A DNA stretch of 64,000 bases, from the NCBI GenBank assembly GCA_043798915.1, contig JAZDOG010000020.1, forward strand, positions 7,281 to 71,280, given 5' to 3'. This DNA comes from Pseudomonadota bacterium (lineage in GTDB: Bacteria; UBA10199; 2-02-FULL-44-16; JAAZCA01). This document shows, piece after piece, positions 9,118 to 39,303 of the stretch. A program made the translations under genes and the position numbers. Every line of letters begins with the position of its first letter. Position 1 is the stretch's first letter. The notes below the pieces were generated by a model. It searched no databases, was not told the origin of the DNA, and saw nothing but the letters and a program-made list of their open reading frames with translations.

Positions 9118-9975
9118 ATGAATATCAAAAAAGAAATATTCGATAAGCTCATCTGCTTAGGCTGCCATTCGAACGGATTGACCCTTTGCGCCGATTTCTC
9201 AATCCGGTGCGCCAAATGTTTGCGCACATATCCGATCGTGAACGGAGTGTATTCCTTTGTCCCGGAGGAAGCGGTTTCCTTCAGCGAAGTGCCGAAAGAG
9301 ATACGCGGCAATTATATCAGGGTTAAGAGGGCAGCCTACTTCGACGAGTCATTCATCCAAAAATTATACACGCATTATCATCGCTATGCGGGAAAGATGA
9401 GGAGCTTGTATGGCGGCGATGGATCAACGTTGGATATCGGGTTTGGGGCGGGCGAGCATTATGAATTCATCCGCCCTGACGAAAAAGACGGACGATCATT
9501 TATCGGAGCAGATCGCGACAGGTTCAAATTGGAATACTTTTGCAGAAATCATCAGGATGTTCCGGTGTTTCAGGCGGATGCACTCGACCTGCCGTTTTCG
9601 GATGGCAGTTTTGATGTGGTGCAGCTCTTGGCAACCATAGAACATTTTGATATAAAAGGCGTCAACAGGGTTATCTCTGAAAGCCTGAGGGTTTTGAAGG
9701 CGAACGGGATCCTGATCGTATGTTATCCGGCGGAAGGCAGCCTGCTGCTGAAGTGCTGCCGAAAGATCATGGGGGTCATTTTAAAGTTCAAGTCGGATTA
9801 TGACATGGTGAAAGATCTGGCGCATACGCATGCGCATTTATCTTCCGCCGCTGAAACAAGAAAAGCTTTGAAGAGCAACGGGCAATTAAAAAACGTCGAT
9901 TCATCATTCTACTTTCTGTCAATTCCAAATTTGCATTTATCACTTTTTATCAATGAAGTTTATAGAAAGATATAG
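9118..9975 (+). CDS. Class I SAM-dependent methyltransferase with N-terminal Trm112-like Zn-ribbon (CLGC...CAKC)
   Basis: Motif I 'LDIGFGAGEH'; acidic 'DALDLPFSDGSFDVV' post-I/II motifs (Methyltransf_11-like). Confidence 0.7.
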   Translation: MNIKKEIFDKLICLGCHSNGLTLCADFSIRCAKCLRTYPIVNGVYSFVPEEAVSFSEVPKEIRGNYIRVKRAAYFDESFIQKLYTHYHRYAGKMRSLYGGDGSTLDIGFGAGEHYEFIRPDEKDGRSFIGADRDRFKLEYFCRNHQDVPVFQADALDLPFSDGSFDVVQLLATIEHFDIKGVNRVISESLRVLKANGILIVCYPAEGSLLLKCCRKIMGVILKFKSDYDMVKDLAHTHAHLSSAAETRKALKSNGQLKNVDSSFYFLSIPNLHLSLFINEVYRKI

Positions 9976-9994
9976 CCGCCTTTGCAGGTAAAAT

Positions 9995-11512
9995 ATGACA
10001 ATGAATCGCAATAAAATATTGCTTGTTTATCCAAAGGTGGGGATGAGCGGTTCCTTTGCGTGTCATCTTCCTTTGAGCCTTCTCTATGCGGCGGCGGATT
10101 CCATCAAGGCTGGATTCGAGGTGGATATTGTCGATGTGAGGCTTTGTCCGCAGAAATGGAAGGAAGCCATCTCTGCGAAGATATCTTCCGGCACGATTTT
10201 GGCCGGGCTGAGCGTCATGACGGGCACGCCGATAAAAAATGCCCTTGAGATCTCCAGGTGGATCAGGAGTTCTTATTCCCATGTGAAGGTTGTCTGGGGA
10301 GGGCCCCACGCCGCTTTCAACGGCGCCGAGATTTTAAGGGAAAGGAGCATAGATTATGTCGTCAGCGGCTATGGTTCGCTGCCCCTGTCCAGGATTGCCA
10401 GGTTCCTGAGGGGCGACAAAGATGCATTGCAACTTGAGGACATATCCGGCCTGTCATATCGCAAAAACGGCTCTATCATGTCGGTGCCGAGGGAAAATAA
10501 ATTTGAGCTGATCAATTATAAAGACATTCCATACCACCTTATAGAAAAAGACCTTGGCCGCTATGGCCAGCTGGACAACGGCGAGATCATTTTCCCAATG
10601 TATAGCGTGGTAGGCTGCCCGTATCACTGCGCATTTTGTTCTTCCCCGGCTCAGTATAGGGATTTTACAAACAAGTACGAACGCATTTCATCGCAGGAGG
10701 TGGTCGACCATATCGAATTTGTTAAAAACGGGTATGGCGCCGAATATATATATTTCATCGATGATGATTCGTTCGTCAATCTTGAACATGTGACAAAAAT
10801 AATCGACGAGGTCAACAGCAGGGCGCTCAAGGTGCGCCTGGGTTTCAGGGGGGCCAGGATCGATGAGATCAAAAAAATGGATGACGAATATCTGGAAAAG
10901 CTGGTCGATGTCGGAACTGACATCCTTCATGTCGGTGCTGAATCAGGCTCGCAAAGGATGCTCGATCTGATACGAAAGGATATCACCGTCGATGATATTA
11001 TTTTCGTAAATAAAAAGATGGCGCGCCATAGCAGGATCGTTACCACATATAACTGGATAGTCGGGCTGCCGGGGGAGACGGAGGGCGATTTGCGCAAGAC
11101 GAGGGAGCTGATCATGACACTGCTGGGCGACAACCCGACTGCGATAATTGTCATGCCCAATAAATACCGCCCCTTGCCAGGAACAGAGCTGTATGAACAC
11201 GCGTTGAGACACGGCTATAAAAAACCTGCCAGGCTGGAAGACTGGATCGACAGAGAGGCGGAGGGAAGCTGGCGGATGCCGTGGTATACAAAAGAGACGG
11301 CAAAGATGATAGATATGATGCAGGTGACTTCATTTTTTATAGACGACAAAATATTCAAGGTGCGGACAGGCAGGACATTGAAGTTTCTCCTGGCGCGCCT
11401 GGTCTCCTGGATATATGCCCCGATAGCCAGGTTGAGATTTAAGCATGGTTTCTCAGGGATGCTAGTTGAACACAAATTGTTCCAATGGTCGGTCTCCGCC
11501 TTCCGAAAATAA
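9995..11512 (+). CDS. B12-binding-domain radical SAM protein (class B rSAM; likely C- or O-methyltransferase on a sugar)
   Basis: N-terminal Rossmann-like B12-binding region (ILLVYPK..., 'VVWGGPHA'), then rSAM cluster CPYHCAFC. Confidence 0.8.
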   Translation: MTMNRNKILLVYPKVGMSGSFACHLPLSLLYAAADSIKAGFEVDIVDVRLCPQKWKEAISAKISSGTILAGLSVMTGTPIKNALEISRWIRSSYSHVKVVWGGPHAAFNGAEILRERSIDYVVSGYGSLPLSRIARFLRGDKDALQLEDISGLSYRKNGSIMSVPRENKFELINYKDIPYHLIEKDLGRYGQLDNGEIIFPMYSVVGCPYHCAFCSSPAQYRDFTNKYERISSQEVVDHIEFVKNGYGAEYIYFIDDDSFVNLEHVTKIIDEVNSRALKVRLGFRGARIDEIKKMDDEYLEKLVDVGTDILHVGAESGSQRMLDLIRKDITVDDIIFVNKKMARHSRIVTTYNWIVGLPGETEGDLRKTRELIMTLLGDNPTAIIVMPNKYRPLPGTELYEHALRHGYKKPARLEDWIDREAEGSWRMPWYTKETAKMIDMMQVTSFFIDDKIFKVRTGRTLKFLLARLVSWIYAPIARLRFKHGFSGMLVEHKLFQWSVSAFRK

Positions 11513-12068: not shown

Positions 12069-12225
12069 TAATGATAGAATAGCATGTGATGTCACCGATT
12101 GTCAAATATAGCAGGAGTGATTTTGCTTGGCATTTCAAGTAATTAGGATGGTTGTCCAATAAGTTTGATTTAGATGAATGATGATGTTATCTTGATATAG
12201 CAAGGTATTTCAAAGTGAGGTCATT

Positions 12226-13398
12226 TTGCTGCGCTTCAGACAAATAATAAAGAACCCCGAAAAGGATAAGCAGCCAGAGGAAAAGAGGGGTTCGGTCTCA
12301 TTTTCAGAGCTGCGGGATCAAAAGGAATTCCCCGCACAGGGGCCGCCTGCGCAGGAACCGCGCGCACAGGAGCCGGCCAAAGAGGAGCCAAAAGCTGCAG
12401 ACTCGATAAATTTGCGGCTCTTCGATGTAAAAGAGCAGGGCAAGCAAATGTCCCCGCCCAAAGATGATCTGCCGTCGATTTCGGATGCGGTCTCCGCGTT
12501 CGATACGTATACGAAGATGGCCGATTTCTTGAGCGGGGTTACCGGCCGGCTTGTGCGCGCGGAGCCGGTCACTTATGATGAGATTGAGGCCCAGGTTGAA
12601 AATCTGCTGGCCGAAACCAAAGAACACCCGGATCAGACGCAGCTGTTGATAGAGGTGGACACTCCCGAGGATTACCCCGTAGGGCATATGGTCTGCGTCT
12701 GCATCCTGGCGCTCAGGATGGGCATGGAGCTCAATTTTAGCCATGAAAAGCTGATGACTATGGGAATAGGGGCTTCGCTGTTTGACGTTGGAATGATCAA
12801 ATTGCTGGACATCGCAAGTGTGGGACGCAATGTCAGCCCGCTCGAATTTGACGAGGTGAGGAAGCATCCTGAATACAGTGTGAATGTGATCAGACAGATC
12901 AAAGGCATGCCTGAGGCGGCTGTCGAGATTGCGATGCAGCACCACGAGCGCCCCGACGGGAAAGGCTATCCGTACGGTTTGCGCGCGGGGCAGATTTCCG
13001 AGCTTGCAAAAGTTGTGATGCTTGCCGACGTCTATGTGGCCTTGACTCACTCAAGGCCGAAGAGGGCGGGTGTGACGCCCCACGATGCGATCAAAGAGCT
13101 TTTGCAGGGCCCCCGTCTTTTCAGCCCCCATGTCCTGAAGGCGCTTCTGCGCGTTATCACGGTGTACCCCATCGGCACCTGGGTTGAACTCAATTCGCGC
13201 GATGTGGGGCGAGTCGTAAAGCTCAACCACGAACAGCCGCTGCGCCCCATAATTGAAGTCGTGTGCGACTATCGGGGCCAGAGGATGGAATCAAAAAATG
13301 TGGTAAATCTGAACGAACGCCCTCAGCTCTATATCACCGGCGTGGTGGAAAAGGATCATGTGAAAAAATGGGGCCTGGATGAGCTGGTCCTCGCTTGA
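12226..13398 (+). CDS. HD-GYP domain protein (c-di-GMP phosphodiesterase family) with low-complexity Pro/Glu-rich N-terminus
   Basis: 'HHERPDGKGYPYGL' matches the HD-GYP signature HHE.xDGxGYP. Paralogous to 53950..55080 and shares its C-terminal 'P(I/V)G(T/S)WV.L..(R/G).(V/A)(G/A)RVV.LN' domain. Confidence 0.75.
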   Translation: MLRFRQIIKNPEKDKQPEEKRGSVSFSELRDQKEFPAQGPPAQEPRAQEPAKEEPKAADSINLRLFDVKEQGKQMSPPKDDLPSISDAVSAFDTYTKMADFLSGVTGRLVRAEPVTYDEIEAQVENLLAETKEHPDQTQLLIEVDTPEDYPVGHMVCVCILALRMGMELNFSHEKLMTMGIGASLFDVGMIKLLDIASVGRNVSPLEFDEVRKHPEYSVNVIRQIKGMPEAAVEIAMQHHERPDGKGYPYGLRAGQISELAKVVMLADVYVALTHSRPKRAGVTPHDAIKELLQGPRLFSPHVLKALLRVITVYPIGTWVELNSRDVGRVVKLNHEQPLRPIIEVVCDYRGQRMESKNVVNLNERPQLYITGVVEKDHVKKWGLDELVLA

Positions 13399-13561: not shown

Positions 13562-14995
13562 ATGAAGGTTTTTGTGGCAGGCGGGGCGGGTTTTATCGGG
13601 AGCAACCTGATCGCGCGATTGCTCAGCGGCTATTCATTATTTGCGGCCGTCATTTTGGCGGCAGTCGTGCTTCGCCTGTATTGTCTCGGCGAAAGGACCT
13701 TGGGGGTGGACGAAGCGACCGCTTTGTTGACTGCCTCTCCTTCCGTCAAGGATATATGGCTGAACTCGTTTTATCAGCACCTGATATCTCAAAGTCACTT
13801 GCCAGCTTACTTCTGGCTGCTGCATTTCTGGATGCTCCTCGGAAAAAGCGAAATTGTCGTGAGGCTGCCCTCGGTCATAATGGGGCTGGCTGCATTTCCT
13901 CTGATGTACTCAACAATGGTAAAGCTGTATGATAGCAAAGCCGCAAAAATAGCATGTGTGCTCCTTGCGTTTTCATGGCTCCACATCCGATATTCGCAGG
14001 AAGCAAGGATGTATTCCTTGATGGTGTTCCTCAGCCTTTTGTCCTTCTATTTCTTCGTGAGAGCAATTCAGCAAAATCAGCGCCGCCATTGGCTGGCCTA
14101 CGTCTTCTTTACCGCAATCAATTTGTTTACGCACATCTTTTGCCTCATCCTGCCTTTAACTCAACTCATTTATCTCGTATTTTTTTATAAGGGGAATAAG
14201 AAAAAGATCGCGCCATATGCCATCCTGACTTTGCTCACTTGTCTTTTAATCATGTTTGTTATCCACAACTCATATCTGATGGCTATGACGGCTAATGTCA
14301 GAGCCGCACGAGACATTCATTTCATGCCGTCCGTGCTGGCAGGTCTCAGCTCCGGCCATCCAAGCCTTCCGTTGGGATATATTTCAATTCCGCTCTTCTT
14401 GGCGATTCTCTGTAAACCCATTTATCGGGCGATCAGAGAGCGCCAGACCGAATCCATCCTGCTCATCGTTCATTTTGCGATTCCGTTTTTTACCATCGCA
14501 GCATTGTCCATGCTCTCAACGAAAATTTTCATCCGCTATGTCATATTTCTGCTTCCGTTCTATCTCATGCTCGTTGCCATGGCTATCTCGAGCATAAAAA
14601 CGGTCATGCTTGGAAGGGCGCTCGTCATTCTGATCATTCTGCTCAATGTTGTTCAGCTTCATCATCATTATCGTTATGAAGAAGAGCCCTGGAGAGAGGT
14701 GGGACGTTTCCTTGAGCAAAGAACAGCGCCAGATGATGCGATTGTCGTCATCCCGGGGTATTACTGGATCGCATTGGATTATTATTACAAGGGGGGCAAC
14801 GAGAAGCTGGGGCTTATAACGGGGGCGGGTGGGAATCTTGATTCGATTGAGCGGTTGCATAGAAAAAAGAATGTATGGCTTATTTGCGACCCGTCTCTAA
14901 ATGATTACTGTGTAAATTTAGTTGGCAAACTTTCGCAAAGCCCTGCGGCGCAATCGGAATTTCCCAGCGTGTTTTATGTCAGACGCTCTGAGTGA
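13562..14995 (+). CDS. GT-C superfamily membrane glycosyltransferase (ArnT/PMT_2-like) carrying a foreign 21-aa SDR-type N-terminus (MKVFVAGGAGFIGSNLIARLL)
   Basis: After the GxGxxG Rossmann fragment, the protein continues as a typical PMT_2/ArnT N-terminus (AAVILAAVVLRLYCLGERTLGVDEA...), multiple TM helices and a C-terminal soluble domain. True ATG with an AGGAG RBS at 13562. Confidence 0.55.
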   Translation: MKVFVAGGAGFIGSNLIARLLSGYSLFAAVILAAVVLRLYCLGERTLGVDEATALLTASPSVKDIWLNSFYQHLISQSHLPAYFWLLHFWMLLGKSEIVVRLPSVIMGLAAFPLMYSTMVKLYDSKAAKIACVLLAFSWLHIRYSQEARMYSLMVFLSLLSFYFFVRAIQQNQRRHWLAYVFFTAINLFTHIFCLILPLTQLIYLVFFYKGNKKKIAPYAILTLLTCLLIMFVIHNSYLMAMTANVRAARDIHFMPSVLAGLSSGHPSLPLGYISIPLFLAILCKPIYRAIRERQTESILLIVHFAIPFFTIAALSMLSTKIFIRYVIFLLPFYLMLVAMAISSIKTVMLGRALVILIILLNVVQLHHHYRYEEEPWREVGRFLEQRTAPDDAIVVIPGYYWIALDYYYKGGNEKLGLITGAGGNLDSIERLHRKKNVWLICDPSLNDYCVNLVGKLSQSPAAQSEFPSVFYVRRSE

Positions 14996-16425: not shown

Positions 16426-16654
16426 GTGTCTCTATGGTCTGTTATCATACTCGCTATTTACTGCACAAGGGCAATTGGGTTCCTAAAGGGGCAATGGAGT
16501 CCAGTAAGATACAAATATGATTATGCCTTTACATCTGGCAAATAATATTCTATCTCTATGATATTAATAAGAAAAAGGGTTGGAGATAGCGGGCACTGAA
16601 AAGCTGTTTTTATAGTCGGCCGCCGCACTAGGTGGGCTGGCTTTGGCGAGCATA

Positions 16655-22679: not shown

Positions 22680-22681
22680 GG

Positions 22682-24340: not shown

Positions 24341-24355
24341 GGCGATGCTGAAAAT

Positions 24356-25159: not shown

Positions 25160-25160
25160 C

Positions 25161-31341: not shown

Positions 31342-32133
31342 GTGATTTCCACGACACATGACTGGCCTCCGAATTCGCTTCTGGGGCATGGCGGCAAGCG
31401 CTCGATCCCGAGCGTGTCAAAATACTGCGACCATCTGGGTTGCACGGGTCCTCTTGTCCTCGATGTCGGCTGCGGCGATGGTATCGTGGTGAGAGAGCTT
31501 TGCAGGCGGGGTCTGAAGGCGGTCGGCGTCGATCGTCTTGCCGGGGCATGGGAGGGGTTGCCTGCTCTCGTAGCCGACGCTTTCCATCTTCCATTTCCCG
31601 ACTGCTCCTTTGACGCGGCAGGCTGTTTCGCCGTCCTCGAACATCTGGCGGAGCCGGCGCTCATCCTGAAAGAAATAGCGCGGGTGACAAGGCCGGGCGG
31701 CAGGATTGTAATAGGATGCCCCAACATGCGAGCTGTTTTCCTGCTGCATCCGGGGCATTTTGTGACCCACCGCGGCGGCCTCAGACAGAGGTTTGTAAAT
31801 TTGATTGTCTATTTGAAAACGCTTTTTAGAGCCCTTGGCTCAAAGGACATTCCGTTTGAAATCATGCCCCCCCCTGATATGACAAAAATACCACAGGGCG
31901 CCTCCGACTATAATGCATTATGCGCAACCAACTTCGTTACAGTCAAATATGCCCTCAGAAGACTCAATCTGAAGATAGTCTACATATCCGCAGGCATGGA
32001 ATATTCAAAAGGCATTTTGAAGATTATTCTGGTCAGAATCATCGACAAAATTCCTGTTGTCAGAGAATTGTTTGGTGGAATGTTCGTTGTTGCCGTAAAG
32101 AGGGAATGCGGCAGAAAGAGCGGAGGCCGATGA
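31342..32133 (+). CDS. Class I SAM-dependent methyltransferase (Methyltransf_11-like)
   Basis: Motif I 'VLDVGCGDGIVV'; 'FDAAGCFAVLEHL', 'VTRPGGRIVIGCPN'. Confidence 0.7.
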   Translation: MISTTHDWPPNSLLGHGGKRSIPSVSKYCDHLGCTGPLVLDVGCGDGIVVRELCRRGLKAVGVDRLAGAWEGLPALVADAFHLPFPDCSFDAAGCFAVLEHLAEPALILKEIARVTRPGGRIVIGCPNMRAVFLLHPGHFVTHRGGLRQRFVNLIVYLKTLFRALGSKDIPFEIMPPPDMTKIPQGASDYNALCATNFVTVKYALRRLNLKIVYISAGMEYSKGILKIILVRIIDKIPVVRELFGGMFVVAVKRECGRKSGGR

Positions 32134-33708: not shown

Positions 33709-34824
33709 ATGACCGATGAGTCGCCGATGAGCAATCAGGTTTATCAACTGCCTTCTCGCATTCCAGAGCTCGACGGCCTGCGTGCGATAGCCGTGCTGGC
33801 TGTGATGAGCGCTCATGCGGGGCTTCCCGGCTTCGCACGGGGTGGTGTGGGTGTTTATCTTTTTTTCGTGCTTTCAGGATTTCTCATCACCGGAATTCTC
33901 CTGGATGCTGACAAGGGTAAAGGGTATTTCAAAAACTTTTACGCTCGGCGTGCGCTTCGCATTTTTCCGATTTATTACATGACATTTGCGTTTCTATTGG
34001 CGCTGGCCTTTCTTCAGGGCTTGAAAACAAGCGATTGGCCCTGGTATCTTGCCTATGCTCAAAATTATCTTTTCATCTTCAAACATTTTCCGCCGAATTT
34101 CCCCAGCTGCTTTAATCATACCTGGTCCCTGGCCGTCGAGGAGCAGTTTTATTTCATATGGCCATTCCTCATTGGGATCCTCGGAAAAAGACGAGTGTTC
34201 ATCGTCTCCCTGATCTTCATCCCTTTGGCCATCGGCTTGCGTTGCTTTCATATCCAGGCAATCTTTGGTCCCGAGGTTTGGACGCTGCCCGTGAATCTGA
34301 ATTCGCTCGGCGGGGGGGCGGCGCTGGCAGTGGCGGTCCGTACCTTTGACCGGGAAACCCTGAAGAAAGTCTGCCGTGCGCTCTTCCTTGGTGGTGCGAT
34401 CGCCTGGGTTGTGATTCAGATATTCGTGAGCCCATATGGAATGGGCTGGCTTGAGCTTGGAATGGTTTGCTGCACTACAATAACATTCACCGGGCTCGTT
34501 GGAACAGCTGTGCTGTCACCGCCGTCGCTACTATCCGGTTTTCTTAGCCTTGGCTGGATGCGCTATATCGGCAAAATCAGTTATGGATTATATCTGTACC
34601 ACCCGCTGGTTTTTCTTTTGATGTGGCACTTGTTCAGGGGGCAAGTGGTCAGGCCAGATCATGGCAAGGGTGTGATCCTTTTGTTGGTCCTGGCCAAATT
34701 CGGTTTGACTTTCGTTGCAGCCTCCTTATCATGGCTCCTTTTGGAAAAGCGCATGAATGGTTTCAAGAAGAAGTTTGAATATACCAGAGTCACCCTGAGC
34801 CGCATTGCCCAAGCTCCGATGTAA
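33709..34824 (+). CDS. Acyltransferase family 3 (OafA/OatA-like membrane O-acyltransferase)
   Basis: ATG at 33709. N-terminal 'LDGLRAIAVLAVMSAHAG', 'GVGVYLFFVLSGFLIT', 'RRALRIFPIYY' hallmarks of Acyl_transf_3; about 10 TM helices. Confidence 0.8.
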   Translation: MTDESPMSNQVYQLPSRIPELDGLRAIAVLAVMSAHAGLPGFARGGVGVYLFFVLSGFLITGILLDADKGKGYFKNFYARRALRIFPIYYMTFAFLLALAFLQGLKTSDWPWYLAYAQNYLFIFKHFPPNFPSCFNHTWSLAVEEQFYFIWPFLIGILGKRRVFIVSLIFIPLAIGLRCFHIQAIFGPEVWTLPVNLNSLGGGAALAVAVRTFDRETLKKVCRALFLGGAIAWVVIQIFVSPYGMGWLELGMVCCTTITFTGLVGTAVLSPPSLLSGFLSLGWMRYIGKISYGLYLYHPLVFLLMWHLFRGQVVRPDHGKGVILLLVLAKFGLTFVAASLSWLLLEKRMNGFKKKFEYTRVTLSRIAQAPM

Positions 34825-34870: not shown

Positions 34871-36295
34871 GTGTTGATGTGCTCAGCTGATGGTGAAACA
34901 GGAACGAGGAAGAGCTTCATCGCTGCGACCATAAAGTTTTTTTCGTCATGGCGTGGAATGCATTTTTTTATCTTGGCATTTGTTATGGCGGTTGCCTTTT
35001 CTTTTATTTTTCCGCAAAAAATTGAATATGATTCCACGCAGTATGAGCATCTTGGATGGAACATTTCCCAGGGAAACGGTTTGTCAGATGCCTCGGCAGC
35101 GCCTTTTGTGCCGACCTCAGGCCGCGAGCCGGTCTATCCGCTCTTTATCAGTTTGTTTTATCTTTTTTTTGGAAGACATCCGGAAATTGTGCTGGTAGCC
35201 CAGTCGCTGTTGCATGCAACCACTGCTCTTTTGATCTACCGGCTGGCCTGTCGATGGTTTTCCTTAAGCGTGGCCGGTCTGGCCGGCTTTCTGACCGCTG
35301 TGGATCCAACCCTTTATGGTTTTTGCAGCTACTTGCTGACAGAACCCCTGGCTCTCTTTTTGCTGGCCTCGTTCGTCTATTTGGCGGTTTTCGTGCGAGA
35401 GCGGAATGGTCTGGCTTTCTCCTTGGCGGGGGGGGCACTGCTCGGCGCTTTGGCGCTTTGTCGTGCGGTGTTTATGTTTTTGCCGGTTGTTTTTTTTGTG
35501 TTTATGGTGTTTTCGCGTTTTCCATCAAAACTTGGAAAAAGGATCGTTTATGGGATGATTCTGATCCTTGTTTTTATGAGTGTTCTTTCGCCATGGTTGT
35601 ATAGGAATAAAAAGGCATTCGGTGTTGCTTTTATCACCGCGCGTTCAGGCGAGATGCTTTTGTGGAAGGCGTTGAGGACAGAGCACTCCCCAAGGGAAAT
35701 GCTCGTGGATCTTGTTTATGGAACATCGGATACTCTGGGCCGAAAATTATTTCCCGATGATTATTCGAGGATGAATATCAGCGGGGAACATGGTCCGGAA
35801 AACGTATATCCCATTGGCGTAGAGAGATATATGCGGTATCTTGCCGATGGGTACTCTGAGCTTGAGGCCGATCGCCTGCTTCGAATCGATGCGATTAGGA
35901 TAATTATAAAACGCCCCTTTAAATACATCGCTCAGTGTTTTGTCGACGCGTGGAAGCTCTCTTTTTTTGAGATAGTTCCATTTGCCTACTCAACACGGTT
36001 CAATCAGTTGATGCAAAGGGGAGATTGTCTGTTAGGCTTGGGGACCGCCCTGAGGATACTGCTTCGTTATGTGTATTCATGGCTGATAATTTTATTGGCT
36101 GTCAAAGGATTTCTGGAAGTCCAAAAAGAATGGAGACGAAAATGTCTGTTGCTGGTACCAATTATTTATACGATAGGGACGGCCATTCCATTTGATGTTA
36201 GCGGGAGATACGTCTATCCTGCATTGCCATTTATCCTGATTTTAGCATCGGTATCGGTTGTCAATTTCATTGAAAGAAAACAGCCGTCTTTGTAA
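34871..36295 (+). CDS. GT-C superfamily membrane glycosyltransferase (ArnT/PMT_2-like); paralog of 42463..43839
   Basis: 'YDSTQYEHLGWNISQGNGLS...REPVYPLFIS' closely parallels 'YDAAQYEHLGWNLSQGNGLS...REPLYPFFIS' in the paralog; multiple TM helices. Confidence 0.55.
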   Translation: MLMCSADGETGTRKSFIAATIKFFSSWRGMHFFILAFVMAVAFSFIFPQKIEYDSTQYEHLGWNISQGNGLSDASAAPFVPTSGREPVYPLFISLFYLFFGRHPEIVLVAQSLLHATTALLIYRLACRWFSLSVAGLAGFLTAVDPTLYGFCSYLLTEPLALFLLASFVYLAVFVRERNGLAFSLAGGALLGALALCRAVFMFLPVVFFVFMVFSRFPSKLGKRIVYGMILILVFMSVLSPWLYRNKKAFGVAFITARSGEMLLWKALRTEHSPREMLVDLVYGTSDTLGRKLFPDDYSRMNISGEHGPENVYPIGVERYMRYLADGYSELEADRLLRIDAIRIIIKRPFKYIAQCFVDAWKLSFFEIVPFAYSTRFNQLMQRGDCLLGLGTALRILLRYVYSWLIILLAVKGFLEVQKEWRRKCLLLVPIIYTIGTAIPFDVSGRYVYPALPFILILASVSVVNFIERKQPSL

Positions 36296-36313: not shown

Positions 36314-37225
36314 TCAGGGTTTCTCCGATTTTGTGAGCATGGACAGCGTTCTATCGGGGAGCGCGACGCCATTCTGTTCAGCCAAAAACCCCATTGCCAT
36401 TATTATAGAGACGGCAATCAAAAAAAAGCTCGCCAGCGATATTGCGAAACGAGCCTGGGCCGAATATATGGCCAACAGGATCATGAATGCGCCGGTTATT
36501 GACATTGCAGTGATCAAGGCGAGAAATGCCTTGATCGGATTATAGAGCAGGATTGCCCTCACTATAAGCTGGAGCGTCCACAGCACGTCCCTTTTGAATT
36601 TAATCTTGCTTTTGCCCTTTCTTGCGAAATACGTTATCGGCGTGTGCGCGACGAATCTGCCGGAGAGGAGGCTGACCAAGGTGATCGTTGTCGTGATGGA
36701 GAAGCCGCCACACAGCACTCGCCAGAAGTCGGTGAAGATATCCTTTCTTATTACGCGCATGCCGCTGTTTACATCCGGTATGGAGCGGCCGGTCGCAGAT
36801 TCGCACAGCATGCGGAAGAATATACGAGCTATTCGCAGGATTATGTTTCCATGATATATCTTTCCTTGTCTGGCCCCGACCAGCATGTCGAGATTCCTGT
36901 CGGCCAGGCTCTGCACCATTTCTGGCAAAACCTCCACCGGGTATGTTCCATCGGCATCTATCATGGCGATGATTTCGTGTTTTGCGTTTGCGACTCCTGT
37001 CTTTACGGAATTGCCGTACCCTATGTTGCAGGGGTGTCTGAAGACTCTCGCCCCGGCCTCCTCCGACATTCGGGCTGTTTCATCGGCGGAGCCGTCGTCC
37101 ACGACGATGAGCTCAGCCTCGATATCGGAGGAATCAAATGCCAGTTTGAGTTTTTCAAGCATTTCAGCAATATGCGGGCCCTCATTGAGGGCCGGGATAA
37201 CAACGGAGACTCCTAACCGTTTCAT
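36314..37225 (-). CDS. GT2 polyprenyl-phosphate sugar synthase (Dpm1/ArnC/GtrB-like) with C-terminal TM anchor
   Basis: 'VVIPALNEGPHI', 'VVDDGSADETA', 'DADGTYP' DXD region; two C-terminal TM helices typical of ArnC/GtrB. Confidence 0.8.
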   Translation of the reverse strand: MKRLGVSVVIPALNEGPHIAEMLEKLKLAFDSSDIEAELIVVDDGSADETARMSEEAGARVFRHPCNIGYGNSVKTGVANAKHEIIAMIDADGTYPVEVLPEMVQSLADRNLDMLVGARQGKIYHGNIILRIARIFFRMLCESATGRSIPDVNSGMRVIRKDIFTDFWRVLCGGFSITTTITLVSLLSGRFVAHTPITYFARKGKSKIKFKRDVLWTLQLIVRAILLYNPIKAFLALITAMSITGAFMILLAIYSAQARFAISLASFFLIAVSIIMAMGFLAEQNGVALPDRTLSMLTKSEKP

Positions 37226-37236
37226 AATTTTACCCC

Positions 37237-38457
37237 CTACTTAAGATTGCGCATGTGCTGAGCCAGCTCAACAGACGGCAACAGCTCCTCAGCGATATGT
37301 TTTCCGATAAGCTCCGATGTTTCTTCAGTGGGATGGCTGGTGTCATCGAAAAAAATGTCGCGCGGACGCATTATTTTTTTGCCCCATTTTTCCAGATCGA
37401 TCACCTGCAATCCACGCTGCTTTGCCAATCGGCGCAGGTCGAAGTTATACTGTTCAATAAGCTTTGCAAGGACATAGGGATTGTTTGTATAGGGCGGCAG
37501 AAAGCCGACCTTAAAGGCCCTTTCGCTCGGCTCTTCCTCCATGATATAAAGGCTTGGTATTGTGATTATGACTACCTTGCTTCCCACCGATTGCATTTCA
37601 TCTATGATCTTTGCAATATCCTTCAAAAATTTTGGGTTGTATCCTTCTGCGCTGTGAACCTGCGGTGCATTTTTGTCGGGAGCCATTGCCCTCCTGAGCC
37701 ATCCCTGCGATTCAATTTTCCGCATGCCTATAACCAGATTGGCAAGTCTCATGAAAGCGCTTCTCGCAAGTCGGAAACTCGCTAAATAGCTTTCAATTCC
37801 TCCAGCCGGACCTTCCTCCCATATGGAATTCCATCCAAGATATATTGTTGTGATTTCAGGTCGAAGCTCCTTCATTTTTTCTATGTTGAGGAGGACGTCC
37901 TTTGGTCGATAGCCTTCAACACCGGCATTGACGACCTCAATCCTTTTACCCCGGTTGCGAAGTTCGCGTTCCAACGCTCTCGGGTAGGAATATTTGTCAA
38001 ATAACGACCGAAATGTGCATGAATCGCCGATAGTCAGAATCCTCGGTTGGCTGTGCGTCTTGTCTATCTCGGGTCCTTTGAATCCATCGCTGTTTATCTG
38101 ATATATGATTTCATCCTGATTGAAATTTAATTGAGAGGCTCGGTCGGTTAAATGTTTGACGGCCAAAAATCGCCCTGAATATTCTTTTGCGTTGACTGTT
38201 TGTTCCAATGTTCTCGAGATTCCAGGCCTCAAAACCCAGCTGAGCGATGGATGTTTCGGGTCTGGCATCTCATATTCGTTCAAATCTGGTGTTGCAGCGA
38301 GGTTCAAAAAAGTTTTGATTTCGTCACGAAAGACGAATGCGAGGCGCGAACCGCCTTCTATAATTATTCCTGTCAATACAATCACAAGGAAGATAAACAA
38401 GAACCGAACGTCGTGCGAGCGTCTTTTAGCGTTCTTTATTTTCCCTCCGTCAGCCAT
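37237..38457 (-). CDS. SGNH/GDSL-family hydrolase or acyltransferase with N-terminal TM anchor; paralog of 61923..63098
   Basis: 'RILTIGDSCTFRS' GDS(x) nucleophile block, 'VNAGVEGY' block II. Paralog shares RILTIGDSCTFGS, NAGVEGY, TIY(L/I)GWN. Confidence 0.65.
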   Translation of the reverse strand: MADGGKIKNAKRRSHDVRFLFIFLVIVLTGIIIEGGSRLAFVFRDEIKTFLNLAATPDLNEYEMPDPKHPSLSWVLRPGISRTLEQTVNAKEYSGRFLAVKHLTDRASQLNFNQDEIIYQINSDGFKGPEIDKTHSQPRILTIGDSCTFRSLFDKYSYPRALERELRNRGKRIEVVNAGVEGYRPKDVLLNIEKMKELRPEITTIYLGWNSIWEEGPAGGIESYLASFRLARSAFMRLANLVIGMRKIESQGWLRRAMAPDKNAPQVHSAEGYNPKFLKDIAKIIDEMQSVGSKVVIITIPSLYIMEEEPSERAFKVGFLPPYTNNPYVLAKLIEQYNFDLRRLAKQRGLQVIDLEKWGKKIMRPRDIFFDDTSHPTEETSELIGKHIAEELLPSVELAQHMRNLK

Positions 38458-38517
38458 GTTGTTGTCAGGGGCTGGTCTTCGCGAGATAATTTTATATTGA
38501 GCACATGCTTTAAAGCG

Positions 38518-39303
38518 TCAGGCCTTTTCGGCCAGGACTGTCCATGACATGTCATTGCAATGAACCAGTCTGATGTTTTTCAAGGGCAGCCCTTCCGTGA
38601 GGCCGAGGACCTCGTCCCTCTTCCAGTAGTGGCAAATGCTTGGAATGAGCTGGTCAAAAACAATTCCCTCCACATTTCTGAAGGGCATCTGTTGTAAATG
38701 GCGGAAGTATTCTTCTTTATTGGGAAATAACAAATATAGCTTCAATATGCAGGCAAGCATTTTTGCGAGCAGGTGATTCAACATGGGCGGCATTCGCGAC
38801 GTAAGGTGAATTCTCAATGGGTCAAAAAGCTTCACGTACGTTTCATTTCCTTCATAGGCATACACGTATACGATTAAAGCGCCTCCTCTTTTCAAAGCGC
38901 GCACTAGGTTCTCCAGCGCCCGGCGAGGGTCCGCCAGGCAATGGACCACGCCGATTGAAAAGACTATGTCGAACCTGTCCTGGAAATCGATGTCATAGAT
39001 CGATCGAAAGGCAACCTCGCAGTTGGAAAAGCCTTCCAGATTGCTTTTTGCCGCGGCCACCGTCCTGTGATCGTGATCGAACGCATAGCCGGAAGCAGCC
39101 CCGGCTTTGAGGGCAAAGAAGCTGTTGCGCCCGTTCCCGCAGCCGGCATCCATAAAGCTCTTTCCCTTGAATATGGAGGGGTAGAGGCCTCCGGACCAGC
39201 GCCGGAACTGCTCTTCATTGATCGGCATGATTTCTCTAAATAAATTCCACTCGTAGCCGAACTGTTTTTCGGTTCCAATCGGATGGTCGCTGTTTTTTTT
39301 CAT
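38518..39303 (-). CDS. Class I SAM-dependent methyltransferase
   Basis: Motif I 'FMDAGCGNGRNS'; 'FDIVFSIGVVHCL', 'ALKRGGALIVYVY'. Confidence 0.7.
   Translation of the reverse strand: MKKNSDHPIGTEKQFGYEWNLFREIMPINEEQFRRWSGGLYPSIFKGKSFMDAGCGNGRNSFFALKAGAASGYAFDHDHRTVAAAKSNLEGFSNCEVAFRSIYDIDFQDRFDIVFSIGVVHCLADPRRALENLVRALKRGGALIVYVYAYEGNETYVKLFDPLRIHLTSRMPPMLNHLLAKMLACILKLYLLFPNKEEYFRHLQQMPFRNVEGIVFDQLIPSICHYWKRDEVLGLTEGLPLKNIRLVHCNDMSWTVLAEKA

What the first reader, a model, noticed from the sequence alone, without database searches (positions are those of the whole stretch)
9118..39303. Glycan cluster with exceptional density of methyltransferases and radical-SAM enzymes
Within about 30 kb there are 9 class I SAM methyltransferases plus one weak FkbM-like call (three with an unusual N-terminal Trm112-like Zn-ribbon, two FkbM-type). 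There are two B12-binding class B radical-SAM enzymes, which typically methylate unactivated carbons, as in aminoglycoside and fosfomycin pathways. There are also two radical-SAM proteins with SPASM/twitch-like Cys-rich C-termini, plus an acyltransferase-3, all interleaved with five GT4 genes, Wzx and Wzy. This predicts a repeat unit carrying multiple O- and probably C-methyl groups. SPASM-type rSAMs are normally peptide- or protein-modifying, and their role in a polysaccharide locus is unexplained.
Basis: partly seen in the sequence, partly recalled or inferred. Interest (0 to 1): 0.75.

Follow-up and report, generated by a model that had tools for sequence, protein, structure and literature searches.

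The report
Glycan locus rich in radical-SAM enzymes
This is the core of a very large bacterial surface-polysaccharide gene cluster, unusually packed with methyltransferases and four radical-SAM enzymes. At least three of these four enzymes belong to uncharacterised families that sit in sugar-polymer loci in other organisms too, one of them as a three-gene cassette found in many phyla.

Summary
Between 9118 and 39303 there are 7 clear class I methyltransferases plus one motif-only FkbM-like ORF, two B12-domain radical-SAM genes and two SPASM/twitch-type radical-SAM genes. There are also 4 GT4 genes (not 5), Wzx, a Wzy-like gene, a priming transferase, an acyltransferase-3, one GT2 and two GT-C genes. 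The third Zn-ribbon methyltransferase lies outside the range, at 44638.

The region is the centre of an exopolysaccharide locus of more than 55 kb, with Wza and Wzc at 55-58 kb.

The "unexplained" SPASM enzymes are largely explained by synteny. The 19340 protein belongs to a ~330-aa family found in at least 567 species genomes across many phyla. It forms a conserved cassette with orthologues of the two GT4 genes immediately downstream of it. There is no room for a precursor peptide.

The 26290 B12-rSAM family also recurs in glycan loci, often beside Wzm/Wzt and a methyltransferase. Context for the 32195 family is thinner. Context for the 9995 family could not be retrieved.

C-methylation is plausible but unproven. 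By fold, 26290 is as close to the cobalamin-free sugar dehydratase AprD4 as to the methylase MgmA.

No curated family and no paper in the searched library assigns a function to any of the four.

The parts
9118..9975 (+). Class I SAM methyltransferase with an N-terminal CxxC...CxxC Zn-ribbon. It ends 20 nt upstream of B12-rSAM #1.
   Evidence: Methyltransf_11, 54.7 bits. Zn-ribbon motif at residue 13.
9995..11512 (+). B12-binding-domain radical-SAM enzyme #1 (505 aa).
   Evidence: B12-binding 50.0 bits and Radical_SAM 71.4 bits. CX3CX2C at residue 208 and no DxHxxG. No NCBIfam cut-off is reached; the best is BchE at 110.8 bits against 481. The closest PDB sequence is MgmA/QCMT 9ccb, E=3e-10. 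The family has 1167 50%-identity clusters at E<=1e-30.
12226..13398 (+). HD_5 (HD-GYP-like) protein, a likely regulator.
   Evidence: HD_5, 75.8 bits. A paralogue lies at 53950 (35% identity).
13562..14995 (+). GT-C-type membrane glycosyltransferase (PMT_2).
   Evidence: PMT_2, 59.6 bits.
15031..16425 (-). Priming polyprenyl-phosphate glycosylphosphotransferase.
   Evidence: Bac_transf 185.8 bits. TIGR03025 348.8 bits, above its cut-off of 295.6.
16643..17818 (+). GT4 glycosyltransferase (generic).
   Evidence: Glycos_transf_1, 88.7 bits. Only generic hits in the comparator loci.
17811..19340 (+). Wzy-like multi-pass membrane protein (putative polymerase).
   Evidence: Wzy_C 21.6 bits, below its cut-off of 31.7. 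Relatives occur in 3 comparator loci.
19340..20341 (+). Radical-SAM enzyme with a twitch/SPASM-type C-terminal domain. It is the rSAM member of the conserved rSAM+GT4a+GT4b cassette.
   Evidence: Radical_SAM and SPASM hits. Conserved cysteines are C15/C19/C22 plus C240, C258, C292, C296 and C300. At least 1201 homologue clusters and at least 567 species genomes. GT4 is directly adjacent in 54 of 80 loci. AF2 model pLDDT 92.3; closest folds are SkfB and BlsE.
20314..21594 (+). GT4a of the cassette. The likely start is 20338, overlapping the rSAM stop by 4 nt.
   Evidence: Glycos_transf_1, 117.1 bits. Orthologues (>=150 bits, up to 40% identity) lie next to the rSAM in 46 of 85 loci.
21591..22679 (+). 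GT4b of the cassette.
   Evidence: Glycos_transf_1, 98.3 bits. Orthologues (>=150 bits, up to 42% identity) occur in 48 of 85 loci, together with GT4a in 34.
22643..23611 (+). Class I methyltransferase with an N-terminal Trm112p-like Zn-ribbon.
   Evidence: Methyltransf_11 55.4 bits and Trm112p 23.7 bits, above its cut-off of 22.
23729..24340 (+). Class I methyltransferase.
   Evidence: Methyltransf_11, 68.1 bits.
24356..25159 (+). Class I methyltransferase (only a partial-domain match).
   Evidence: Methyltransf_11, 44.4 bits.
25161..26360 (+). GT4 glycosyltransferase.
   Evidence: Glycos_transf_1, 114.4 bits.
26290..27870 (+). B12-binding-domain radical-SAM enzyme #2. The likely start is 26347.
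   Evidence: B12-binding 69.5 bits and Radical_SAM 69.3 bits. 328 homologues. Homologues lie in glycan loci L008, L009, L095, L096 and L093. AF2 model pLDDT 89. By fold it ties between AprD4 and MgmA, followed by OxsB, TsrM and TokK.
27857..28798 (+). FkbM-family methyltransferase. It overlaps the end of B12-rSAM #2 by 14 nt.
   Evidence: Methyltransf_21 52.8 bits. TIGR01444 96.7 bits against a cut-off of 37.7. One relative of 26290 is fused to an FkbM domain (P0286).
28814..30277 (-). Wzx-type flippase.
   Evidence: Polysacc_synt 71.9 bits and Polysacc_synt_3 70.9 bits.
30293..31162 (-). ORF of unknown family. It resembles FkbM proteins only at motif level.
   Evidence: No Pfam hit at E<=1, no NCBIfam hit and no PDB hit. 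BLASTP against 27857 gives E=0.14 over 13 residues.
31342..32133 (+). Class I methyltransferase. It ends 61 nt upstream of the second SPASM-type rSAM.
   Evidence: Methyltransf_11, 71.5 bits.
32195..33706 (+). Radical-SAM enzyme with a SPASM/twitch-type domain and an N-terminal extension of about 140 aa of unknown fold.
   Evidence: Radical_SAM 54.2 bits and SPASM 48.0 bits. The extension is kept in the only two close homologues, P0122 and P0123 (97% and 90% coverage). It has no Pfam hit. C-terminal cysteines are at 367, 385, 429, 432 and 434. Contexts are L004, L005, L006 and L007.
33709..34824 (+). Acyltransferase-3 (membrane O-acyltransferase). The start is taken at the first Met after the rSAM stop codon.
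   Evidence: Acyl_transf_3, 114.3 bits. Start position.
34871..36295 (+). GT-C-type membrane glycosyltransferase (PMT_2).
   Evidence: PMT_2, 44.4 bits. 50% identical to 42331.
36314..37225 (-). GT2 resembling polyprenyl-phosphate sugar synthases.
   Evidence: Glycos_transf_2, 95.5 bits. Best NCBIfam hits are AglJ, PpgS and ArnC-like models, all below cut-off.
37237..38457 (-). SGNH/GDSL hydrolase-fold protein.
   Evidence: Lipase_GDSL_2, 57.4 bits. A paralogue lies at 61869 (51% identity).
38518..39303 (-). Class I methyltransferase.
   Evidence: Methyltransf_31, 61.0 bits.
39445..52990 (.). Continuation of the glycan locus. It holds an SDR epimerase/dehydratase, a DegT aminotransferase, two GT2, two GT-C and a Zn-ribbon methyltransferase (44638). 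It also holds a UDP-GlcNAc 2-epimerase, a GDP-mannose 4,6-dehydratase, two GT4 and a sugar-1-P nucleotidyltransferase.
55126..57884 (+). Wza-like export protein and Wzc-like chain-length regulator/tyrosine autokinase.
   Evidence: Poly_export plus SLBB domains; Wzz plus GNVR plus AAA_31 domains. TIGR01007 168.6 bits, above its cut-off of 108.

Best explanation
The region is the central, tightly packed part of a Wzx/Wzy-dependent, Wza/Wzc-exported exopolysaccharide locus of more than 55 kb. It comes from an uncultured bacterium (NCBI MAG 'Pseudomonadota bacterium'). All the methyltransferases and all four radical-SAM enzymes are glycan-tailoring enzymes, not peptide maturases.

Shown:
- The gene content.
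- Translational coupling of Wzy, rSAM, GT4a, GT4b, three methyltransferases, GT4, B12-rSAM and FkbM from 17811 to 28798.
- The 19340 rSAM family and the 26290 B12-rSAM family are embedded in glycan loci in many unrelated genomes.

Inferred:
1. The priming transferase (15031) starts a repeat unit on undecaprenyl phosphate. GT4 and GT2 enzymes extend it. Wzx flips it, the Wzy-like protein polymerises it, and Wzc/Wza export it. GT-C enzymes, fed by GT2 polyprenyl-P-sugar synthases, add side sugars in the periplasm. The acyltransferase-3 and SGNH proteins O-acylate the polymer.
2. The 19340 enzyme works as a unit with GT4a (20314) and GT4b (21591). Using its radical-SAM cluster and one auxiliary cluster, it abstracts a sugar C-H hydrogen from a nucleotide sugar or a lipid-linked intermediate. 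The outcome would be epimerisation, oxidation to a ketone (BtrN-type) or decarboxylation (BlsE-type). This gives a non-standard residue that the paired GT4 enzymes install or extend.
3. The two B12-domain enzymes, each next to a class I or FkbM methyltransferase, most likely methylate unactivated carbons of a sugar or its substituent via methylcobalamin. The class I methyltransferases methylate O or N atoms.
4. The 32195 enzyme performs a further radical modification, in the module with methyltransferase 31342 and the acyltransferase.
For: Locus type:
- PGT above its curated cut-off, Wzx, a Wzy-like gene, and 4 GT4, 1 GT2 and 2 GT-C genes.
- Wza and Wzc downstream.
- Sugar-nucleotide genes at 39-53 kb.

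19340 family:
- At least 1201 clusters and at least 567 species genomes, including CPR bacteria and archaea.
- A same-strand GT4 is directly adjacent in 54 of 80 loci, on both sides in 23, and within 3 kb (either strand) in 69.
- GT4 is the only recurrent neighbour.
- Specific orthologues of 20314 and 21591 occur in 46 and 48 of 85 loci, both in 34. The other window GT4 genes give only generic hits.
- The same arrangement occurs in the cultured Segatella copri DSM 18205. In Pseudobutyrivibrio xylanivorans the rSAM lies in a glycan locus with a GT4a orthologue about 2.3 kb upstream. Both are annotated only as 'radical SAM protein'.
- The protein has five conserved C-terminal cysteines. The sugar-nucleoside decarboxylase BlsE matches over the full length (TM 0.65/0.66).

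26290 family:
- Contexts are ManC-Wzm-Wzt-rSAM-MT; giant GT4s-MT-rSAM-Wzt(Wzt_C)-Wzm; heptose genes-Wzm-Wzt-rSAM-MT-GT; and GT4-rSAM-GT4-GT4-GT2.
- The Solidesulfovibrio carbinolicus plasmid has epimerase-acyltransferase-GT-rSAM plus three more genes annotated 'radical SAM protein'.
- One relative is fused to an FkbM domain.

32195 family:
- Close homologues sit with a methyltransferase, a B12-rSAM and paralogous rSAMs. Distant ones sit among DegT, PglD-like and transketolase sugar genes.

No free small ORF lies beside either SPASM gene.
Against: - There is no biochemical evidence for any of the four enzymes. No curated NCBIfam cut-off is reached.
- Most of the closest folds of 19340 are peptide or protein maturases (SkfB, CteB, anSME, SuiB).
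- A PqqD-like (RRE-type) protein lies in the window at 2067-2618, though 17 kb away.
- External context for the 9995 family could not be obtained. Only one 2-kb relative turned up. A 29%-identical plasmid homologue in Calothrix is not in a glycan locus.
- The two close homologues of 32195 lie on contigs of about 5 kb that show no glycosyltransferase.
- By fold, 26290 is as close to cobalamin-free AprD4 as to the methylase MgmA.
- The comparator loci were chosen by similarity to the rSAM. The GT4 detection used models built from the window itself.
Confidence: 0.7

Rival explanations
1. The SPASM-type radical-SAM enzymes mature a ribosomal peptide (RiPP) or a protein, as anSME does. On this view they are embedded in the glycan locus by accident, or they modify a glycoprotein or peptide partner.
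For: Pfam SPASM hits. The closest folds include SkfB, CteB, SuiB, anSME and PqqE. A PqqD-like protein lies at 2067-2618, near an NTP_transf_5 gene.
Against: There is no free micro-ORF. The rSAM start overlaps the Wzy stop by 1 nt, and a 61-nt gap precedes 32195. Neither protein has an RRE/PqqD domain. No RiPP maturase family cut-off is reached. GT4 synteny is conserved in 54-69 of 80 loci across phyla, with co-travelling GT4 orthologues. Only 5 auxiliary cysteines are conserved. The PqqD-like gene is 17 kb away on the opposite strand.
Confidence: 0.07
2. One or both B12-domain radical-SAM enzymes are not methylases. They would carry out other sugar chemistry: AprD4-type 1,2-diol dehydration (deoxygenation) without cobalamin, or OxsB/HpnJ-type ring rearrangement. 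The locus would then predict deoxy or rearranged sugars rather than C-methyl sugars.
For: AprD4 is the top Foldseek hit (TM 0.77 on the target), tied with MgmA. It is the second PDB sequence hit for both proteins. A review states that AprD4 and ArsL fall inside the B12-rSAM sequence network but bind no cobalamin (PMC12931638). No methylase family cut-off is reached.
Against: The similarity to AprD4 covers only the radical-SAM core and C-terminus (residues 191-461 and 188-470). The N-terminal domain of 26290 aligns to genuine cobalamin binders: the OxsB chain from residue 55, the TokK chain from 91, and the BchE and PhpK profiles from 40-45. The Pfam B12-binding domain is above threshold in both proteins. 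Both genes are paired with SAM methyltransferases, and so are their homologues.
Confidence: 0.25
3. The density reflects a mosaic of several glycan pathways placed side by side: a Wzx/Wzy repeat unit, an Arn-like periplasmic amino-sugar branch, and possibly lipid A or glycoprotein decoration. The methyl groups would then be spread over more than one product rather than one heavily methylated repeat unit.
For: There are five GT-C/PMT_2-like proteins and three GT2 genes resembling polyprenyl-P-sugar synthases. The SDR-DegT-GT2-GT-C run at 39445-43839 looks Arn-like. Low-GC islands lie at 24-26 kb and 44-46 kb. There are several strand switches, and paralogous modules are duplicated in the window.
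Against: The window holds only one Wzx, one Wzy-like gene, one priming transferase and one Wza/Wzc pair. The genes from 17811 to 28798 are co-directional and overlapping, which suggests one operon.
Confidence: 0.35
4. The radical-SAM enzymes act on the lipid carrier or on a membrane lipid rather than on sugars, in the manner of GDGT-MAS, HpnH/HpnJ or the ladderane-type B12 rSAMs.
For: There are weak hits to GDGT-MAS, HpnJ, HpnR and the 'lipid biosynthesis B12-binding/radical SAM protein' model.
Against: All scores are far below the family cut-offs. No lipid-biosynthesis genes lie nearby. The conserved neighbours are glycosyltransferases and O-antigen ABC transporters.
Confidence: 0.05

Closest known systems
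BlsE (cytosylglucuronate decarboxylase), BtrN and SpeY (twitch radical-SAM dehydrogenases), DesII: sugar-acting radical-SAM enzymes
   Same: They share the partial TIM-barrel radical-SAM core, in some cases followed by a small Cys-rich auxiliary domain. BlsE matches the 19340 model over the full length (TM 0.65/0.66, 19% identity; sequence E=3e-8). All act on carbohydrate-like small molecules.
   Different: Identity is below 20%. None of their curated models is reached; TIGR04466 BlsE scores 26 bits against a cut-off of 400, and that hit is for 32195. They belong to antibiotic pathways, not polysaccharide loci, and have no GT4 partners. The 19340 family has its own CX3CX3C motif.
Class B (cobalamin-dependent) radical-SAM methylases: GenK/GenD1 (gentamicin), Fom3, TokK, CysS, MgmA/QCMT, PhpK
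   Same: They share an N-terminal Rossmann-type B12-binding domain followed by a radical-SAM core. MgmA (9ccb) is the best PDB sequence hit for both window proteins. The PhpK subfamily model scores 172.5 bits for 26290. GenK, GenD1 and Fom3 methylate unactivated carbons of sugars or small molecules (own knowledge; review PMC12931638).
   Different: No family cut-off is reached. The substrates here would be polysaccharide precursors, for which I found no characterised example. Cobalamin binding was not tested.
AprD4 (radical-SAM 1,2-diol dehydratase of apramycin biosynthesis)
   Same: It is the top fold match to 26290 (TM 0.67/0.77). It acts on an aminoglycoside sugar.
   Different: AprD4 binds no cobalamin. 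Its sequence similarity to the window proteins is confined to the core and C-terminus.
Radical-SAM genes in LOS/capsule clusters of cultured bacteria: the Brachyspira hyodysenteriae 36-kb plasmid, Campylobacter jejuni HS:19, and the Solidesulfovibrio carbinolicus pDCAR1 plasmid
   Same: Several radical-SAM genes are interleaved with group-1 and family-2 glycosyltransferases and rfb genes. In Brachyspira an rSAM-GT-epimerase-rfbC block correlates with virulence (PMC4267127; PMC8743553).
   Different: No function has been assigned in any of these. I did not test whether the Brachyspira or Campylobacter genes belong to the same families as the window genes. None shows as many methyltransferases.
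Wzx/Wzy-dependent exopolysaccharide and group-1-capsule loci (for example colanic acid), and WbdD-type methyl capping in ABC-transporter-dependent O-antigens
   Same: The machinery is the same: PGT, GT4/GT2, Wzx, Wzy, Wzc and Wza. Homologues of 26290 sit next to Wzm/Wzt carrying the Wzt_C carbohydrate-binding domain and next to a methyltransferase. That position recalls terminal-cap enzymes (the WbdD/Wzt_C logic is own knowledge).
   Different: The size (more than 55 kb), 8 methyltransferases, 4 radical-SAM enzymes and 5 GT-C proteins are unusual. No Wzm/Wzt is present in this window. No kinase domain like that of WbdD was seen.

Membership tests
Radical SAM superfamily | CX3CX2C cluster motif and a Radical_SAM (PF04055) domain | tested here: met
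   All four proteins score 54-71 bits against a cut-off of 29.5. The motifs lie at residues 15-22, 161-168, 208-215 and 231-238.
SPASM subfamily (full, two auxiliary clusters) | Seven to eight conserved C-terminal cysteines (CX9-15GX4C ... CX2CX5CX3C ... C) | tested here: not met
   The Pfam SPASM domain is above its cut-off (29.4 and 48.0 bits against 21.5). However, only 5 C-terminal cysteines are conserved in the 19340 family (C240, C258 in a GX4C context, and CX3CX3C). Protein 32195 has 5 (C...GX4C, CX2CXC). This fits one auxiliary cluster (twitch-like). The cluster content itself cannot be tested here.
RiPP radical-SAM maturases | An adjacent precursor-peptide gene and an RRE/PqqD domain or partner | tested here: not met
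   No free small ORF lies within 200 nt. Neither protein has a PqqD domain. All RiPP maturase NCBIfam models score far below cut-off. The only PqqD-like gene is 17 kb away.
Class B (B12-dependent) radical-SAM enzymes | An N-terminal B12-binding Rossmann domain fused to the radical-SAM core | tested here: met
   PF02310 scores 50.0 and 69.5 bits against a cut-off of 32.1. The model of 26290 superposes on MgmA, OxsB, TsrM, TokK and CysS. For 26290 the N-terminal domain aligns to the OxsB and TokK sequences.
Class B (B12-dependent) radical-SAM enzymes | Actual cobalamin binding and methyl transfer | not testable with these tools
   AprD4 and ArsL show that relatives in this sequence space can lack cobalamin (PMC12931638). 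AprD4 ties as the best fold match. DxHxxG is absent. To my knowledge that motif is not required in solved class B enzymes.
Named B12-rSAM families (BchE, PhpK, HpnJ, HpnR, BzaD, MgmA/TIGR04014, AprD4, KedN5 and others) | A score at or above the curated NCBIfam cut-off | tested here: not met
   Best scores are BchE at 189.4 bits against 481 and PhpK at 172.5 against 600 for 26290. For 9995 the best is BchE at 110.8 against 481.
Wzx/Wzy-dependent polysaccharide pathway | A priming PGT, a Wzx flippase, a Wzy polymerase and a Wzc/Wza export pair | tested here: met
   PGT TIGR03025 is above its cut-off. Wzx has Polysacc_synt hits. Wza and Wzc are present. Wzy is only weakly supported (21.6 bits against 31.7).
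XrtA/PEP-CTERM-associated EPS locus | Curated PEP-CTERM-locus families above their cut-offs, plus an exosortase | tested here: not met
   All scores fall below cut-off: pepcterm_ATPase 208.7 against 324.5; EpsB_2 180 against 393; pepcterm_ChnLen 117 against 279; stp2 and stp3 below 80 against more than 400. No exosortase was identified among the ORFs scanned.
FkbM methyltransferase family | A match to PF05050 or TIGR01444 above the cut-off | tested here: met
   Met for 27857-28798 only (52.8 bits against 22.7; 96.7 against 37.7). For 30293-31162 it is not met. That ORF has no hit at E<=1 and only a 13-residue motif match.
Trm112-like Zn-ribbon fused to a methyltransferase | A PF03966 match above its cut-off at the N-terminus | tested here: inconclusive
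   22643 scores 23.7 bits against 22. 9118 and 44638 carry CxxC...CxxC motifs but have no Pfam call. Whether this architecture is unusual was not tested.

The most novel reading that the evidence does not exclude
The three genes 19340-22679 would be one instance of a widespread but undescribed glycan-building cassette. They encode a twitch-type radical-SAM enzyme and two specific GT4 glycosyltransferases. In this cassette, radical chemistry on a sugar C-H bond is coupled to two glycosyl transfers. The substrate could be a nucleotide sugar or an undecaprenyl-linked intermediate. The cassette occurs in at least 567 species genomes from bacteria (including CPR) and archaea. In parallel, B12-rSAM plus methyltransferase pairs would install C-methyl or other alkyl caps on polysaccharides. 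In ABC-transporter-dependent pathways such a cap could serve as the chain-terminating signal read by Wzt_C. Either would be a reaction class not yet described for cell-surface polysaccharides.
Probability: 0.35. Interest if true: 0.8.

Novelty: new variant of a known kind. Interest (0 to 1): 0.55.

Why it matters
Tailoring of bacterial surface polysaccharides is usually explained by polar chemistry: O- and N-methylation, acylation, and NAD- or PLP-dependent sugar editing. If radical-SAM enzymes routinely edit these glycans, a class of modification is missing from current models of O-antigen, capsule and EPS diversity. Examples would be C-methyl, deoxy, epimerised or decarboxylated residues at unactivated carbons.

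The rSAM+GT4a+GT4b cassette gives a concrete and widely distributed target. It is present in cultured gut and rumen bacteria such as Segatella copri and Pseudobutyrivibrio xylanivorans, so the question can be tested directly. For this window, the practical result is that the puzzling SPASM genes need no hidden peptide substrate.

Tried and rejected
1. Micro-ORF search within 200 nt of 19340 and 32195. Every small ORF overlaps a larger gene, so there is no free precursor.
2. Family-level classification. NCBIfam gives no above-cut-off family for any of the four rSAMs, for 30293, 7179 or the upstream PqqD/NTP_transf_5 genes. It also gives none for the six glycosyltransferases scanned (20314, 21591, 16643, 25161, 36314, 41411).
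3. The PEP-CTERM/exosortase idea. I raised it because of the AAA_22 ATPase and the Wzc-like hits. All scores are below the cut-offs, so I dropped it.
4. Literature. Eight searches for radical-SAM enzymes in O-antigen, capsule or EPS biosynthesis found no functional study. They found only gene lists in Brachyspira and C. jejuni. The library is incomplete, so this negative is not absolute.
5. External context for 9995. The metagenome scan returned a single 2-kb contig. The representative search gives the family size only. The plasmid hit in Calothrix is not in a glycan locus.
6. Rosetta-stone support for the 26290/27857 pair. The fused protein P0286 has a 41%-identical rSAM core. Its FkbM part is only 22% identical to 27857, and its B12 domain is split off. 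I treat this as weak support.
7. 30293 as a methyltransferase. This is not supported statistically.
8. Fold searches did not settle function. 19340 lies among both peptide- and sugar-acting enzymes. 26290 ties between AprD4 and MgmA.
9. PDB searches with GT4a and GT4b gave only generic GT4 similarity, best to PglA, GlgM and PimA.
10. Tandem repeats in the region: none of note.

Full report
**What is in the sequence**

I called ORFs over the whole window and scanned 56 candidate ORFs against Pfam and selected ones against NCBIfam. The range 9118-39303 holds 26 ORFs with almost no intergenic space.

- Methyltransferases (7 clear): 9118, 22643, 23729, 24356, 27857 (FkbM family), 31342 and 38518(-).
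- One ORF with only a motif-level likeness to FkbM proteins: 30293-31162(-). It has no Pfam hit at E<=1.
- Two B12-binding-domain radical-SAM genes: 9995-11512 and 26290/26347-27870.
- Two radical-SAM genes with a SPASM-type domain: 19340-20341 and 32195-33706.
- Four GT4 genes (16643, 20314, 21591, 25161), one GT2 (36314, -) and two GT-C/PMT_2 genes (13562, 34871).
- A priming glycosylphosphotransferase (15031, -), with TIGR03025 above its curated cut-off.
- A Wzx (28814, -) and a weakly supported Wzy-like protein (17811).
- An acyltransferase-3 (true start probably 33709), an SGNH/GDSL protein and an HD_5 protein.

The third Zn-ribbon methyltransferase is at 44638-45558, outside the stated range.

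**Extent of the locus**

The range is the middle of a much larger locus. Downstream lie the following genes:

- an SDR, a DegT aminotransferase, two more GT2 and two more GT-C genes;
- a UDP-GlcNAc 2-epimerase, a GDP-mannose 4,6-dehydratase, two more GT4 genes and a nucleotidyltransferase;
- Wza- and Wzc-like export proteins (55126-57884), a carbamoyltransferase and a second SGNH protein.

The window matches a 112.5-kb contig of an NCBI MAG labelled 'Pseudomonadota bacterium'.

**Is the density more than chance?**

The methyltransferases share only 22-36% identity over their cores. The two B12 enzymes share 26% identity. The density therefore does not come from recent duplication.

I annotated 80 glycan loci from other genomes (867 kb) with the same queries. 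They contain 0.20 methyltransferases and 0.03 B12-rSAM genes per 10 kb. The window region contains 2.3 and 0.66 per 10 kb. No comparator locus has more than four such genes. The comparator set is imperfect, because it was selected through one of the rSAM families and detected with window-derived queries. Even so, the roughly tenfold excess is clear.

**The first SPASM-type enzyme (19340-20341)**

This was the most informative gene.

- *Family size and spread.* It belongs to a large family of about 330 aa, with at least 1201 clusters at E<=1e-3. They include Chloroflexota, Verrucomicrobiota, Planctomycetota, Bacillota and Bacteroidota. They also include Cyanobacteriota, many CPR lineages, and Thermoplasmatota and Woesearchaeota archaea.
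- *First three contexts.* In Krumholzibacteriota, Thermoleophilia and a 2.3-Mb contig the gene sits between two GT4 genes inside glycan loci.
- *Best 80 genome loci.* A same-strand GT4 domain is directly adjacent in 54. It is on both sides in 23, within 3 kb (either strand) in 69, and within 6 kb in 73.
- *Neighbours.* Clustering all neighbouring ORFs showed that GT4 is the only recurrent neighbour (65 of 80 loci).
- *Specific GT4 partners.* The two GT4 genes directly downstream in the window (20314 and 21591) have specific orthologues next to the rSAM elsewhere (150-320 bits, 30-42% identity). These occur in 46 and 48 of 85 loci, both in 34, and at least one in 60. The other window GT4 genes give only generic similarity.

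The window therefore carries a conserved three-gene cassette. Its commonest order elsewhere is GT4a-rSAM-GT4b. Here the order is rSAM-GT4a-GT4b, with 4-nt gene overlaps.

The cassette is present in the cultured Segatella copri DSM 18205. In Pseudobutyrivibrio xylanivorans the rSAM lies in a glycan locus with a GT4a orthologue about 2.3 kb upstream. NCBI's annotation calls the gene only 'radical SAM protein' in both.

**Structure of the 19340 protein**

An alignment of 41 family members keeps the CX3CX2C motif and five C-terminal cysteines: C240, C258 in a GX4C context, and a CX3CX3C triplet. This fits one auxiliary cluster (twitch-like) rather than a full SPASM domain.

A confident AF2 model (pLDDT 92.3) is closest to SkfB and to the sugar-nucleoside decarboxylase BlsE (TM 0.65/0.66 over the full length). 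CteB, anSME, SuiB, MoaA, BtrN and DesII follow. The fold alone does not fix the substrate class. The gene context does.

No free small ORF exists next to the gene, because its start overlaps the Wzy stop codon.

**The second SPASM-type enzyme (32195-33706)**

This protein is rarer. Only two close homologues were found (48-51% identity). Both keep the N-terminal extension of about 140 aa, which has no Pfam match.

- One homologue lies in the order methyltransferase - B12-rSAM - this rSAM - a paralogous rSAM.
- The other lies between two paralogous rSAM genes.
- More distant relatives (26% identity) sit among DegT aminotransferases, a PglD-like acetyltransferase, split transketolase genes and a methyltransferase. 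This is a nucleotide-sugar editing context.

It too has only five C-terminal cysteines. Only a 61-nt gap lies upstream. The evidence for a glycan role is weaker than for 19340, because the closest contigs are short.

**The B12-type enzymes**

Both carry a Pfam B12-binding domain above threshold and a CX3CX2C motif. Neither reaches any curated family cut-off. The nearest models are BchE and PhpK.

The best PDB sequence match for both is MgmA/QCMT (9ccb), a cobalamin-dependent glutamine C-methyltransferase. The next is AprD4.

The 26290 family has 328 homologues and recurs in glycan loci:
- ManC-Wzm-Wzt-rSAM-methyltransferase;
- giant GT4s-methyltransferase-GT4, then the rSAM on the opposite strand, adjacent to Wzt(Wzt_C)-Wzm;
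- heptose genes-Wzm-Wzt(Wzt_C)-rSAM-methyltransferase-GT;
- GT4-rSAM-GT4-GT4-GT2;
- on the Solidesulfovibrio carbinolicus plasmid pDCAR1, epimerase-acyltransferase-GT-rSAM, with three more genes annotated 'radical SAM protein' nearby.

One relative is fused to an FkbM domain. This echoes the 14-nt overlap of 26290 with the FkbM gene 27857. The FkbM parts are only 22% identical, however.

The AF2 model of 26290 (pLDDT 89) ties between AprD4 and MgmA by fold. OxsB, TsrM, TokK and CysS follow. A recent review notes that AprD4 and ArsL lie in the B12-rSAM sequence network but bind no cobalamin (PMC12931638).

At sequence level the likeness to AprD4 covers only the core and C-terminus. The N-terminal domain of 26290 aligns to genuine cobalamin binders. 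I therefore favour cobalamin-dependent methylation, but I give the non-methylase alternative about one chance in four.

For 9995 the family is large (1167 50%-identity clusters at E<=1e-30). Its genomic context elsewhere could not be retrieved. Its glycan role rests on its position 20 nt after a Zn-ribbon methyltransferase inside this locus.

**Mechanism proposed**

The steps below are inferred unless marked as shown.

1. The priming transferase starts a repeat unit on undecaprenyl phosphate.
2. GT4 and GT2 enzymes extend it on the cytoplasmic face. Class I and FkbM methyltransferases add O- or N-methyl groups.
3. The cassette rSAM abstracts a sugar hydrogen atom. The result is an epimerised, oxidised or decarboxylated residue that GT4a and GT4b install or extend.
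4. The B12 enzymes add methyl groups at unactivated carbons.
5. Wzx flips the unit, the Wzy-like protein polymerises it, and Wzc/Wza export it.
6. GT-C enzymes, supplied by GT2 polyprenyl-P-sugar synthases, add side branches in the periplasm. The acyltransferase-3 and SGNH proteins O-acylate the polymer.

What is shown is the gene content, the operon-like packing, and the cross-phylum synteny of two rSAM families with glycan genes. Whether all the methyl groups end up on one repeat unit is open, given the GT-C branch and the compositional mosaic.

**Comparison with what is known, and novelty**

Sugar-acting radical-SAM enzymes are well known in antibiotic pathways. Examples are BtrN, BlsE, DesII and AprD4, and among the class B methylases GenK, GenD1 and Fom3 (own knowledge).

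Radical-SAM genes have also been listed in LOS and capsule clusters of Brachyspira hyodysenteriae and Campylobacter jejuni, without assigned function (PMC4267127; PMC8743553).

I found no paper in the searchable library that assigns a function to a radical-SAM enzyme in O-antigen, capsule or EPS assembly. I also found no curated family for any of the four proteins.

The locus is thus a known kind of system, a Wzx/Wzy exopolysaccharide cluster, in an unusual variant. The lasting point of interest is the conserved rSAM+GT4a+GT4b cassette and the recurrent B12-rSAM/methyltransferase pairs in glycan loci. The gene count in this one window is secondary.

Noticed in passing
window 2067-2618 (-), 5406-6500 (+), 6504-7124 (+): A PqqD-like (RRE-type) protein, an 'uncharacterised nucleotidyltransferase' (NTP_transf_5) and a GNAT acetyltransferase lie just upstream of the glycan genes. 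None matches an NCBIfam model. Their link to the locus or to the rSAM genes is unknown.
   Followed up: partly
window 11562-12095 (-): A 177-aa ORF fills the only sizeable gap of the region. It has a signal-peptide-like N-terminus and internal repeats (VRTKGQYYQEDVRTKGKYEE, and VKTPEAP...PARY twice). It has no Pfam hit. It may be a small secreted repetitive protein or may not be a gene.
   Followed up: no
window 7179-8909 (-), 13562-14995, 34871-36295, 42331-43839, 46701-48389 (-); GT2 at 36314-37225 (-), 41411-42448, 43856-44608: There are five GT-C/PMT_2-like membrane glycosyltransferases (one weak). There are also three GT2 genes resembling polyprenyl-phosphate sugar synthases. The run 39445 (SDR) - 40428 (DegT) - 41411 (GT2) - 42331 (GT-C) looks like an Arn-type periplasmic amino-sugar transfer branch.
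   Followed up: partly
window 12226-13398 / 53950-55080; 53084-54004 / 59084-60034; 37237-38457 / 61869-63098; 34871-36295 / 42331-43839: Paralogous pairs occur within the window: HD_5 proteins (35% identity), AAA_22 ATPases resembling the PEP-CTERM-locus ATPase but below its cut-off (46%), SGNH/GDSL proteins (51%) and GT-C proteins (50%).
   Followed up: partly
window 60053-61882 (+): A carbamoyltransferase of the NodU/CmcH type (N- and C-terminal domains, 346 and 250 bits). It suggests O-carbamoylation as a further glycan decoration.
   Followed up: no
window 24001-26000 and 44001-46000: Low-GC islands (41-42% against about 50% for the locus) cover two methyltransferases and a GT4, and the 44638 methyltransferase. 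This is consistent with mosaic acquisition of tailoring genes.
   Followed up: no
L008 6216-11316; L009 8001-12335; L096 5981-10489: Homologues of the 26290 B12-rSAM sit immediately beside the O-antigen ABC transporter genes Wzm and Wzt. Two of the Wzt proteins carry the Wzt_C carbohydrate-binding domain. A Methyltransf_23 protein directly follows the rSAM in L008 and L096 and lies about 3 kb away on the opposite strand in L009. This suggests a role in making the chain-terminating cap that Wzt_C recognises.
   Followed up: partly
L020 6988-8427, also L010, L018, L021, L045, L047: In several CPR and Chloroflexota loci an unidentified gene of about 460-480 aa separates the cassette rSAM from the GT4 genes (constant spacing of about 1460 nt). 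It forms a small family seen in 5 loci.
   Followed up: no
L093 (Solidesulfovibrio carbinolicus pDCAR1) 21615-25293: Three further genes annotated 'radical SAM protein' lie in a row on a plasmid of a cultured sulfate reducer. They are near a glycosyltransferase, an acyltransferase and a sialate O-acetylesterase. This organism could be a tractable model.
   Followed up: no
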